DNA from: the human T2T-CHM13v2.0 reference genome, Homo sapiens
Direction: 5' to 3' (one strand)
DNA length: 64,000 nucleotides
Assembly: GCF_009914755.1 (NCBI RefSeq)
Contig: NC_060930.1
This document shows positions 58,661-61,839 of this stretch, in pieces. A program made the translations under genes and the position numbers. Within the stretch, counting starts at the first letter, position 1. Every line of letters begins with the position of its first letter. The notes below the pieces were generated by a model. The model searched no databases. It was not told the DNA's origin and saw only the letters and a program-made list of their open reading frames with translations.

Positions 58661-58844
58661 CTGTTAGATAACAGGCTAAATGAAACTCAAGAATTGATTA
58701 AAACTAACAAGAAACTTATACTAAGAATACCCTGGTTGAGGCAACCCTGTATTTTTGTTATCATGGTCCTGGACATTCAATAACTTTTGTCCACACTCCA
58801 CATCTGTCTTTAATCCCTTTATTTGTATATGTCACGTATATTAG

Positions 58845-59190
<346 letters not shown>

Positions 59191-59295
59191 TAATAAGTTA
59201 TTAAGAACCTGAAATCCAAATATAAATGGTCTGTCTTTCAGTAAATTTATCAAATGAGTCACTAAATGCAGAGACTCCCAACTGCCTTTCCTTAT

Positions 59296-59661
59296 TCACA
59301 AATAAAAGATGGTGTCTGGGGTGATTGTTGTTACCCACATATGCCCTCCTCTGGAGAGCTGATCTGACTCTGTGGGGAGTGCGTGACGATTCCCTTCTTG
59401 TTTCAGGTCTTGAAGACTCAGGATTTCCCTGCTGGGATCCTATGTCTCTACCAGTTCTCACATAAATCTACATTTAGATTGAAAAAAAGAAAACCCAGAT
59501 TCCATTCAGAGTATCAACTTCACAGCCATCAGCAGCAGTGTGATGACAAACAGCAGCATAGTGACAAACACTAGCAGGGCCAGCCCAATGCTGTGCAACA
59601 CGTTTGGGGTAGGAGTGAGACCCAAGGAAGGCAAAGAAATGACAGAGGTGTTTGCAGCCAT
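59296..59661 (-). pseudogene. Candidate decayed small single-pass membrane protein gene (or intact 51-66 aa TM micro-ORF)
   Basis: ATG 4 nt after a putative acceptor; N-T-S sequon; ~26-aa hydrophobic run rich in CTG codons; the same frame continues through 3 stops to ...TPDTIFYL*. Confidence 0.4.
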
Positions 59662-61839
59662 GGGCCTGGGGGTGAGTGACAGTGTCTTGTCCTCAGGCTT
59701 CAGCATTTGCCGGCCACTTGGGGCCAGAGCACCTCTTAGGAATGTGTCCCTCTCCCTTTAATTGAAGCTCTTTTTGCCCCTTCTCCTTGTCCTGCTCTTG
59801 ATCTTTGCCTCCAGGTAATTTTCTCCCAATTTAAAAACTGTTGGGTATTCTGACCTCTTGCTATATTCTTTTAACTACCTGGAGTCCCTGGTTTTGATCT
59901 TCTAAGGTCTGATCTCTCCTACTCATGTTGATTTCTATTTGATAAGGCTCTTTGTTTCCAACTGAATTGCTAGCTCCAGGTTATTTGAAATTATAGAGAC
60001 AATAAAGGAAATAAAGACATGGAGTTTGAAGAGGAGATGATATGGAAAACAAACATTAATACAGAGGCTTTGGGCAAGGAACTTTATGATTCCTTGGCTC
60101 AGATTCTCATTTTGAGACACTAAAAAGTTTTTTCTCCTTGTATAAGACATGCATGGGCCATATCACAGTGTCTGACCAGTAGTAATGGTTAATGTTAGCT
60201 ATTAATATTGTTGTTATTGATTTGTACCTTCAGATTAGCTTCAGTTTCCCCAGATTCTCCTCAGTACCCTTTATAAACTAGAGACTATTACATGTTATTG
60301 ACCAATTAGCCATCAGTTCTAGGTAACATGGGAATCATTTCCTGTAGCCAGTAAAAACATGAGCAATTAATCATTTCACATAGGATTTCTCAGAATGAGT
60401 TTTTGTGTTCATAATTGATGACACTTGCCTTTCCAACAATCTCTTCCTCTATATAATAAATTAAATTAAATTCTTTTAATACTCATGTGGCATCATTGTA
60501 ATGTTGATTTTTTATAAATATACATCATGTTTCCCTTCCTAGACTGTAAATACATAACACAGGGCTATCTCTCGCTGTTTGGTGTCTCCACAGATCATCC
60601 TGTTTTACACATGGTAGGAATTCAATTAAAATCTATTGACTGATCCTTTTAAGCAAACGAGAGGACACGTGTACCCCACACAGGGTGAAATGGGTTCTCT
60701 TTTGAAACTAAGCAGTTGTTTTATAGAGATAACACTTTGGTGGTTATGCTGTTAAACACTCAAGTTAAAATCAATGTGGTACGTCAATGTATTCATTTTT
60801 GTTTATTGGAAAGTGTAGTGCTAAGATTTTTAGATGCTTTTGATGAAGTCCCTAAATACATATATACAGATACAGAAGAGATATAGATGTAGACATAGAA
60901 ATATGTCTGAGGAACACGTGCATCAATCCACAATGCACAGGTTTCATGAAACATCTGAAAAAGGAAGCTAATATTATAACTAACCAAGAGCAACTAATGG
61001 CAAAAAATTCCACTAATAAATTGTTTTTATATTTTTAAAATGGAATTTTTTATTTCTATTTAACTTATGCTATGTCACAATAAAAATGCAAAAATAAGTT
61101 ATCAAGTTGAGTTATTCCAATGTGTATTATGGTTTTTACACATAAGAATTCAGCCTAATTAATAATCCAAAATGCCACATACAGATAAATTATGATAGTT
61201 CATGTAACAAAATTATATTTTGTTGACATATATTTTGATACTAAGAATCTTAATAAATTCAATATCATAATGTTTCTCTTATTGAATAAAAACTGCAAAA
61301 TTGAGTATTATTTGGTCATAAATCTTATATCATCTATTCTAATATGGCAAACTATATATCGCTTTGATGAACATAACAACAGTTATAAAAACTTTAGGAA
61401 TGTTTTGGATTTTTTGAAACTAATTTTTAACACACATTTTCCTCAGAGATATGGACTATAAAAATTACTGTATAAAAATTACAAAATCGCTAAAATTCTT
61501 CAATGAGTTTAACTATAAATAATGCTTAAAATAATTATAAGACTTCGTAAACAACTCTTTCACTTTGCTCTTTTAACAGTAAGATACTAGTTTAAAGATG
61601 TGATATTTATAATCAATATAAAAAGGTAGCAATCGATTTTTAAGAGAGAAGTCAGGGTATTAACTAGAACGCACAGTTTTCTTTGGCAGTTGTAGACAAA
61701 GGTCATAGGGTCCTAGTAACCATAGCTATCATTGTCATTTCCAGAATTTTAAATAATCTAAGTGATCAGACCCCAGATTATTTTAATCTAAAAGATAAAA
61801 ACAAATACTTGAAGCCATCCTCTACGCTAAATGCTAGGT

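What the first reader, a model, noticed from the sequence alone, without database searches (positions are those of the whole stretch)
59296..59706. Possible unitary pseudogene or microprotein: small single-pass membrane protein frame
Seen: this unique, GC-richer block reads on the minus strand from ATG 59661 without frameshift: MAANTSVISLPSLGLTPTPNVLHSIGLALLVFVTMLLFVITLLLMAVKLIL*MESGFSFFQSKCRFM*ELVET*DPSREILSLQDLKQEGNRHALPTESDQLSRGGHMWVTTITPDTIFYL*. It has an N-terminal N-T-S sequon, a Ser/Thr/Pro-rich ectodomain, one hydrophobic segment rich in CTG codons, and a hydrophobic C-terminus. A plausible acceptor (ctgtcactcacccccag|GCCCATGG) sits 4 nt before the ATG. ATTAAA (59189-59194) and AATAAA (58818-58823) lie downstream on the minus strand. 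Inference: this is the layout of type III single-coding-exon membrane proteins. The two internal TGA stops could be CGA(Arg)>TGA changes, and the first would restore a basic residue right after the TM segment. I do not recognise the family. Three stops in about 120 codons is by itself only weak evidence.
Basis: partly seen in the sequence, partly recalled or inferred. Interest (0 to 1): 0.7.

Follow-up and report, generated by a model that had tools for sequence, protein, structure and literature searches.

The report
Old SMIM13 processed pseudogene, HS3ST5 intron
The "membrane-protein frame" is the decayed, intron-less copy of the messenger RNA of the small membrane protein gene SMIM13, pasted long ago into an intron of HS3ST5; it is an ordinary dead retrocopy, not a lost gene or a new microprotein.

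Summary

- **What it is.** Window about 59750-59201, minus strand, is an intron-less copy of the SMIM13 mRNA. A short tail piece at 58831-58814 lies behind an inserted Alu.
- **The parent gene.** SMIM13 sits 104 Mb away on the same chromosome. It has two coding exons 40 kb apart and an intact 91-codon frame.
- **The copy joins the exons.** The two exons abut at window 59519|59518.
- **How decayed it is.** Identity to the parent is 205 of 272 coding bases, K2P 0.30. ATG has become GTG. There are 8 indels, 6 of them frame-shifting, and 4 stops in parent-aligned codons. Of 25 parental CpGs, 0 survive. Differences show no codon-position bias (24/16/27).
The transmembrane segment is real SMIM13 homology.
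- **What is artefact.** The "N-T-S ectodomain", the ATG at 59661 and the "acceptor" all lie in former 5'UTR. The C-terminal half is read out of the parental frame.
- **Age.** Three exact eutherian-specific residues and the eutherian two-codon deletion place the insertion after the marsupial split.

This is an ordinary feature. It has no row in the RefSeq table supplied. Interest is low.

The parts
58800..59750 (-). Whole SMIM13 retrocopy, including the Alu that later split it. Both ends are approximate.
   Evidence: The 5' limit rests on the three-way alignment, where invariant columns begin at window 59730 and likeness to the chr3 copy runs to about 59755. The 3' limit rests on the last matched piece, 58831-58814.
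59602..59750 (-). Segment derived from the parental 5'UTR, which is a CpG island.
   Evidence: Searches align it with SMIM13 sequence upstream of the start codon and with the chr3 copy. Only 41 of 77 aligned bases are identical in the last 80 nt. The parental stretch has GC 0.759 and 31 CpG; here GC is 0.542 and 2 CpG remain.
59599..59601 (-). Former start codon, now GTG.
   Evidence: the parental ATG maps to window 59601.
59519..59601 (-). Coding part derived from exon 1: the SMIM13 transmembrane helix, with a 6-nt in-frame insertion and a 1-nt insertion.
   Evidence: 74% identity over 95 nt to chr6:10962220-10962307, E 1e-5 genome-wide; 73.7%; indel list; tblastn match 59595-59449.
59518..59519 (-). 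Exon 1 | exon 2 junction. The 40-kb parental intron is absent.
   Evidence: maps the last base of exon 1 to 59519 and the first base of exon 2 to 59518. In the parent these lie at chr6:10962309 and chr6:11002323.
59310..59518 (-). Coding part derived from exon 2, broken by indels of +9, +2, -1, -2, +2 and -1 nt. The parental stop codon maps to 59312-59310.
   Evidence: 71% over 293 columns, E 5e-39; second tblastn match 59446-59315 in another frame.
59201..59309 (-). Segment derived from the proximal 3'UTR.
   Evidence: 81 of 106 aligned bases identical (76.4%), K2P 0.284.
58866..59179 (-). Alu element inserted later into the A-rich part of the retrocopy's 3'UTR. It is in sense orientation on the minus strand. 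A-rich flanks resembling a target-site duplication were seen by eye only.
   Evidence: flanks read directly; this stretch matches many Alu copies in the other loci. The table supplied with the finding lists 58841-59060 as masked.
58814..58831 (-). Tail piece of the retrocopy behind the Alu, carrying the inherited AATAAA (58818-58823). Tentative.
   Evidence: 17 of 18 bases identical to parental L009 859-876, collinear with the rest. 9 of 1000 shuffles reach the score. Alone it scores E 0.45.

Best explanation
Window about 58800-59750, minus strand, is an ancient processed pseudogene (retrocopy) of SMIM13, small integral membrane protein 13 (Pfam DUF4750).

A spliced SMIM13 mRNA, probably a short form ending at a proximal AATAAA, was reverse-transcribed and inserted into what is now an intron of HS3ST5, in the same orientation as that gene. 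This is inferred to have happened through the LINE-1 machinery.

The insertion took place in the eutherian lineage after its split from marsupials. By its divergence it probably came before or around the eutherian radiation.

The copy then decayed neutrally. It lost its start codon (ATG to GTG), its CpGs were lost, it acquired eight indels and several stops, and an Alu landed in its A-rich 3'UTR.

It contains a chance ATG in the former 5'UTR, then the true transmembrane helix in the parental frame, then out-of-frame readings of the tail. It has no function of its own.

Shown here: homology, intron loss, disablements, lack of codon-position bias, and eutherian-type residues. Inferred: the LINE-1 mechanism, the date, and the lack of function.
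For: 1. **The parent is identified.** Exon 1 at chr6:10962220-10962307 matches the window at 74% identity and is followed by a GTGAGT donor. Exon 2 lies at chr6:11002323 onward. The joined frame is 91 codons and open. In one search, 76 of 77 candidates had E <= 0.001, and most rows that carry a source name are called small integral membrane protein 13. Almost all rows carry PF15938.

2. **The copy has no intron.** Exon 1 maps to window 59615-59521 and exon 2 to 59490-59207. The global alignment runs through the junction at 59519|59518 at the same identity as elsewhere.

3. **Protein-level significance.** tblastn of SMIM13 against the whole window gives two collinear matches in different frames, E 1.5e-12.

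4. **Decay.**
- Coding part: 205 of 272 identical, K2P 0.302.
- 3'UTR: 81 of 106 identical, K2P 0.284. The coding part is therefore no better kept than the UTR.
- 8 indels in the coding part.
- Differences by codon position: 24, 16 and 27 out of 91, 91 and 90 sites.
- Of 25 parental CpGs, 0 are kept and 11 are now TG or CA.
- Parent-aligned codons are 49 of 91 identical, with stops at codons 25, 27, 42 and 85.

5. **Independent origin.** The window copy is nearer to the parent (72% overall) than to the chr3 copy (66-67%).

6. **Date.** Six residues are fixed-different between 8 eutherians and 7 other amniotes.
- The window has the eutherian state at 3 of them (H3, F12, L22).
- It is nearer the eutherian state at 2 more: TCT is one step from TTT at site 29, and GT- at site 45 is Val-like.
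- It has the other state at 1 (Q52).
- It also lacks the two codons that eutherians lack: there is no insertion near coding nt 225.

7. **Not a repeat family.** Only the parent and copies on chr3 and chr13 were found in the genome.
Against: - No poly(A) run is visible at the expected 3' end.
- No target-site duplication of 10 nt or more (at most 1 mismatch) was found between the flanks.
- The 3' piece behind the Alu is short: 18 nt, with 9 of 1000 shuffles reaching its score.
- The 5'UTR-derived part is only 41 of 77 identical to the parent. Its homology rests largely on the three-way alignment with the chr3 copy.
- None of the three raw frames hits Pfam DUF4750, even at E <= 10.
- The own-genome search started from parental exon 2 did not return the window copy. 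The protein search with the chr3 copy did not return it either. This shows how degraded the copy is, and that those searches are lower bounds.
- Q52 is the non-eutherian state.
- Presence or absence in other mammals, transcription and translation could not be tested with the tools at hand.
Confidence: 0.93

Rival explanations
1. A formerly functional SMIM13 retrogene that coded for a time in early eutherians and was later lost in the line to humans.
For: - The transmembrane segment still reads as a helix in the parental frame.
- The copy lies in sense orientation in a transcribed intron, according to the table supplied with the finding.
- Other mammals carry proteins annotated "SMIM13-like", so coding retrocopies of this gene may exist elsewhere. 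Their loci were not examined.
Against: - Coding K2P (0.302) is not lower than 3'UTR K2P (0.284).
- Differences show no third-position excess (24/16/27).
- The start codon is lost, there are 8 indels, and there are 4 stops in parent-aligned codons.
- Nothing suggests a past period of constraint, although a short one cannot be excluded.
Confidence: 0.04
2. The 66-aa frame (59706-59506), or the 51-aa frame from ATG 59661, is translated today into a new single-pass microprotein. It would be built from former 5'UTR plus the inherited SMIM13 helix, and reached through the acceptor-like site at 59665.
For: - The frame is open and ends just after a hydrophobic helix.
- The acceptor-like tract has 12 of 16 pyrimidines.
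- It has the same orientation as HS3ST5.
Against: - The window holds 49 ATG-ORFs of 66 aa or more and 128 acceptor-like sites, so neither feature is unusual.
- The RefSeq table supplied shows no exon here among 12 HS3ST5 transcripts.
- The N-terminal part is decayed UTR.
- The frame ends 3 codons after the 1-nt insertion that leaves the parental frame.
- No expression data could be consulted.
Confidence: 0.02
3. A fragment of a transposable element or other dispersed repeat, or a chance frame.
For: - The region is surrounded by Alus.
- The own-genome searches give only lower bounds on copy number.
Against: - Only 3 places matched and 3, and all are explained by SMIM13 and its copies.
- The homology follows the spliced mRNA of a single-copy gene from 5'UTR to 3'UTR.
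- 59201-59750 is not in the list of masked repeats supplied with the finding.
Confidence: 0.01

Closest known systems
SMIM13 (small integral membrane protein 13; Pfam PF15938, DUF4750), the parent gene at chr6:10.96-11.00 Mb of this assembly
   Same: The window copy is collinear with the spliced mRNA through 5'UTR, the 91-codon coding part and the proximal 3'UTR. Identity is 75% in the coding part. It has the same transmembrane helix and the same AATAAA.
   Different: The copy has no intron and lies 104 Mb away. Its start codon is lost and its frame is broken 6 times. Its CpG island has decayed, with 0 of 25 CpGs kept. It gives no Pfam hit.
The SMIM13 retrocopy on chr3:37414726-37415143 (-) of the same genome
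   Same: It is also intron-less, reaches about as far into the 5'UTR, and ends near the same proximal AATAAA.
   Different: It is younger or better kept: 83.8% identity overall, K2P 0.185, with 69 of 91 codons identical and a 155-codon stop-free stretch. At the exon junction it carries about 14 extra bases, which match the first bases of intron 1. This suggests another donor site was used. It gives a weak Pfam hit, E 0.0062, below the cut-off.
Mammalian processed pseudogenes in general, made by LINE-1-mediated retroposition of mRNAs (established knowledge, recalled)
   Same: A spliced copy of an mRNA at an unrelated locus that shows neutral decay.
   Different: The usual end marks, a poly(A) tail and target-site duplications, are no longer recognisable here. 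That is expected at about 0.3 substitutions per site.

Membership tests
Processed pseudogene (retrocopy) | Homology to the mature mRNA of a multi-exon gene elsewhere in the genome | tested here: met
   the 5'UTR, both coding exons and the 3'UTR of SMIM13 are collinear with the copy. tblastn gives E 1.5e-12.
Processed pseudogene (retrocopy) | Parental intron absent, with exons joined exactly at the splice junction | tested here: met
   the exons are 40 kb apart in the parent and abut at window 59519|59518.
Processed pseudogene (retrocopy) | Poly(A) tail at the 3' end | tested here: not met
   no A-run follows the inherited AATAAA at 58818-58823. The only A-run, 58866-58874, belongs to the inserted Alu. 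Loss is plausible at this age.
Processed pseudogene (retrocopy) | Flanking target-site duplications | tested here: not met
   no match of 10-15 nt with at most 1 mismatch between the 5' flank 59730-59810 and the 3' flank 58690-58812.
Processed pseudogene (retrocopy) | Disabled frame and neutral pattern of change | tested here: met
   ATG to GTG, 8 indels, 4 stops, codon-position differences 24/16/27, and coding K2P 0.302 against 3'UTR K2P 0.284.
SMIM13 / DUF4750 (PF15938) protein family | Match to the Pfam model above its cut-off of 27 bits | tested here: not met
Parental exon 2 scores 40 bits and the chr3 copy 16.7 bits. The copy descends from the family but no longer encodes a member.
Unitary pseudogene | No intact parent or paralogue in the same genome | tested here: not met
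   an intact 91-codon SMIM13 is present on chr6.
Unitary pseudogene | Intact syntenic orthologue in other species | not testable with these tools
   No mammalian genomes other than the window's own are held.
Transposable element / dispersed repeat | Many dispersed copies and a match to a repeat family | tested here: not met
   3 places each, all SMIM13-related. These counts are lower bounds, and no repeat library was available.

The most novel reading that the evidence does not exclude
The retrocopy has been partly re-used. The 66-aa open frame (59706-59506) joins former 5'UTR to the inherited SMIM13 transmembrane helix. It might be spliced into an HS3ST5-sense transcript through the acceptor-like site at 59665 and translated as a primate membrane microprotein.
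Probability: 0.02. Interest if true: 0.45.

Novelty: new member of a known kind. Interest (0 to 1): 0.1.

Why it matters
It matters little in itself. It adds one unlisted, very old SMIM13 processed pseudogene to the annotation of an HS3ST5 intron. It also explains a GC-rich "unique" block that could otherwise be mistaken for a lost gene or a microprotein.

It has two small side values:
- It is a worked example of how a retrocopy's 5'UTR plus a surviving helix can imitate a type III membrane protein.
- This copy and the chr3 copy hint that SMIM13 has used a proximal poly(A) site. The chr3 copy also hints at an alternative donor site in the germ line.

Tried and rejected
- **Own-genome search from parental exon 2.** It missed the window copy and so could not serve as a copy count. 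It did reveal a chr13 copy.
- **Protein search with the chr3 copy.** It also missed the window copy. Its two weak extra hits, on chr1 (E 1.36) and chr4 (E 7.3), were not followed and are taken as chance.
- **Looking for the retrocopy beyond 58800.** Only Alu matches and scattered weak hits turned up, so no long-3'UTR continuation was found.
- **Search for target-site duplications.** Nothing was found.
- **Shared splice variant.** I considered that the window copy carries the same about 14 extra junction bases as the chr3 copy. I rejected this because the canonical junction aligns at the usual identity and the window's 9-nt insertion lies further downstream.
- **One copy derived from the other.** I considered that the window copy was duplicated from the chr3 copy. 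I rejected this because it is closer to the parent than to chr3.
- **Literature.** There were 0 papers for "SMIM13P1" or "SMIM13 pseudogene"; the 2 hits were for the old name C6orf228 only. There were 0 papers holding both SMIM13 and retrocop*. Of the 49 papers mentioning SMIM13, I saw only the search listing of 15 and opened none.

Full report
**1. The observation.** With an upstream ATG, the open frame is 59706..59506, 66 aa. The block is GC-richer than its surroundings: 0.52-0.535 at 59500-59799 against 0.30-0.45 in the flanks.

As bare statistics none of this is remarkable:
- The 64-kb window holds 98 ATG-ORFs of 51 aa or more, and 49 of 66 aa or more.
- 8.3% of all 121-codon windows have 3 stops or fewer.
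- A crude filter finds 128 acceptor-like sites.

Pfam finds nothing in the read-through peptide.

**2. What it is.** I searched the window's own genome with window 59230-59780 (minus strand). Besides the window itself, this gave two places:
- chr3:37414756-37415143, 67% identity over 386 nt.
- chr6:10962220-10962307, 74% identity over 95 nt, E 1e-5.

The second place is a GC-rich stretch. It starts with an ATG, encodes a 26-residue hydrophobic N-terminus and ends at a GTGAGT donor. In other words, it is a first coding exon.

The chr3 place carries the same helix and then continues, without interruption, into a further acidic tail. A search with that chr3 translation found the tail's source at chr6:11002319-11002462, 40 kb downstream of the first exon. 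There a polypyrimidine tract and AG precede the match.

The two exons together give an open 91-codon frame. The exon 2 peptide matched 76 of 77 database candidates at E <= 0.001. Most rows that carry a source name are called small integral membrane protein 13, and almost all rows carry PF15938, DUF4750. The parent is therefore SMIM13. I had first recalled that name from memory.

**3. The window copy is intron-less.**
- blastn maps parental exon 1 to window 59615-59521 (73.7% identity) and exon 2 plus proximal 3'UTR to window 59490-59207 (71% over 293 columns, E 5e-39 in that small search).
- A global alignment of the spliced parent with the window runs straight through the junction. The last base of exon 1 falls at 59519 and the first base of exon 2 at 59518.
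- tblastn of a full-length SMIM13 protein against all 64 kb gives two collinear minus-strand matches, 59595-59449 and 59446-59315. They lie in different frames, with summed E 1.5e-12. The next best hit in the window has E 1.3.

This is the anatomy of a processed pseudogene. It lies 104 Mb from its parent, inside an intron of HS3ST5 and in that gene's orientation, according to the annotation table supplied with the finding.

**4. State of decay.**
- Coding part: 205 of 272 aligned bases identical (75.4%), K2P 0.302.
- First 115 nt of 3'UTR: 81 of 106 identical (76.4%), K2P 0.284.
- Last 80 nt of 5'UTR: 41 of 77 identical.
- The parental ATG is GTG at 59601-59599.
- The coding part has 8 indels: +6, +1, +9, +2, -1, -2, +2 and -1. 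Six of them shift the frame.
- Read codon by codon along the parent, 49 of 91 residues are identical, and stops stand at codons 25, 27, 42 and 85.
- Differences fall on codon positions 1, 2 and 3 as 24, 16 and 27 out of 91, 91 and 90 sites. My own chi-square from these counts is about 2.9 with 2 df, which is not significant.
- The coding part is no better kept than the UTR.
- Of 25 parental CpGs in the aligned stretch, none survives, and 11 are now TG or CA.

The parental 5'UTR plus exon 1 has GC 0.759 and 31 CpGs. The corresponding window stretch has GC 0.542 and 2 CpGs. Everything points to neutral decay.

**5.
- The transmembrane segment is genuine. It is read in the parental frame, because 59661 and 59601 are 60 nt apart.
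- Everything upstream of 59601 aligns with the 5'UTR of SMIM13 and of the chr3 copy. That includes the ATG at 59661, the N-T-S sequon, the Ser/Thr/Pro-rich "ectodomain" and the "acceptor" at 59665. These are chance features of former untranslated sequence.
The first TGA is therefore not a parental codon.
- The +9 and +2 insertions restore the frame briefly.
It resembles the +1 frame of parental exon 2 listed.
- The AATAAA at 58818-58823 aligns with an AATAAA in the SMIM13 3'UTR: 17 of 18 bases identical around it, collinear with the rest. 9 of 1000 shuffles reach that score.
- An Alu at about 58866-59179 separates this piece from the rest. It has A-rich flanks that look like its own target duplication.
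- The ATTAAA at 59189-59194 lies in the A-rich stretch next to the Alu and has no parental counterpart.

**6. Ends.** The 5' limit is approximate, at about 59750. Three-way invariant columns begin at 59730, and likeness to the chr3 copy reaches about 59755. At the 3' end nothing beyond about 58800 matches the long SMIM13 3'UTR. No poly(A) run remains, and no target-site duplication of 10 nt or more was found. These two classical marks are therefore not met. At about 0.3 substitutions per site that is unsurprising, but it remains a gap.

**7. Age and independence.** The window copy is closer to the parent (72% overall) than to the chr3 copy (66-67%). The chr3 copy is itself 83.8% identical to the parent. 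They are therefore separate insertions, and the window copy is the older.

Six residues are fixed-different between 8 eutherian SMIM13 proteins (human included) and 7 other amniotes: 2 marsupials, 1 monotreme, 2 turtles, 1 bird and 1 lizard. At these sites:
- The window copy has the eutherian state at H3, F12 and L22.
- It is one step from the eutherian state at 29 (TCT against TTT).
- It keeps GT- (valine-type) at 45.
- It has the non-eutherian Q at 52.

It also shows no insertion where eutherians lack two codons. The source mRNA was therefore of eutherian type, and the insertion post-dates the split from marsupials. Q52 is either a back-change or a sign of insertion on the eutherian stem before Q52E.

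A K2P of about 0.3 is in the range I recall for repeats older than the eutherian radiation. Presence in other mammals could not be tested, because only the window's own genome is held.

**8. Comparison and novelty.** This is a standard processed pseudogene. The RefSeq table supplied has no row for it, and 59201-59750 is not in that table's list of masked repeats. The paper library returned nothing for SMIM13 pseudogenes or retrocopies (search listings only). Pseudogene catalogues such as GENCODE and retrocopy databases could not be consulted, and it may well be listed there. I file it as a new member of a known kind, of low interest.

**9. Rivals.**
- *A once-functional retrogene* cannot be excluded for a short early period. 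Nothing supports it: there is no coding-versus-UTR difference and no third-position excess.
- *A present-day microprotein from the 66-aa frame* is the most novel reading left. No exon is annotated here, and such frames and acceptor-like sites are common in the window. I put it at about 2%.
The searches found 3 places each, and all are SMIM13-related.

Noticed in passing
L002/L011 = chr3:37414726-37415143 (-) of the window's genome: A second, better-kept SMIM13 retrocopy. It is 83.8% identical to the parent, has a 155-codon stop-free stretch, and its ATG is followed directly by TAG. At the exon junction it carries about 14 extra bases that match the first bases of SMIM13 intron 1. This suggests it came from an mRNA spliced at a donor about 13 nt downstream.
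   Followed up: partly
L014 = chr13:103644381-103645249 (-) of the window's genome: A third SMIM13-derived copy, 65% identical over 905 columns to parental exon 2 from inside the coding part onward. It runs well past the proximal AATAAA and does not match exon 1. It therefore looks like a 5'-truncated copy of the long-3'UTR mRNA.
   Followed up: partly
Parent gene, L009 785-795 (chr6:11002584-11002594), compared with chr3 and window copies: Most eutherian SMIM13 proteins end at residue 87 or 88 (...EGH), and the chr3 copy has TGA at the aligned codon 88. Human has AGA there and runs 4 codons further. The human and anthropoid C-terminal extension therefore looks like a stop-codon loss in primates.
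   Followed up: no
window 58866-59179 (-): An Alu whose usual A-rich middle linker is replaced by an ATCA/ATCT-type short tandem repeat (about 59036-59065). It is inserted in the retrocopy's A-rich 3'UTR.
   Followed up: no
One search hit list (P0016, P0021, P0024, P0059): Several mammals carry predicted proteins named "SMIM13-like", or uncharacterised proteins with an SMIM13 tail. They include elephant seal, elephant shrew, rabbit and muntjac. These may be annotated retrocopies in those genomes.
   Followed up: no
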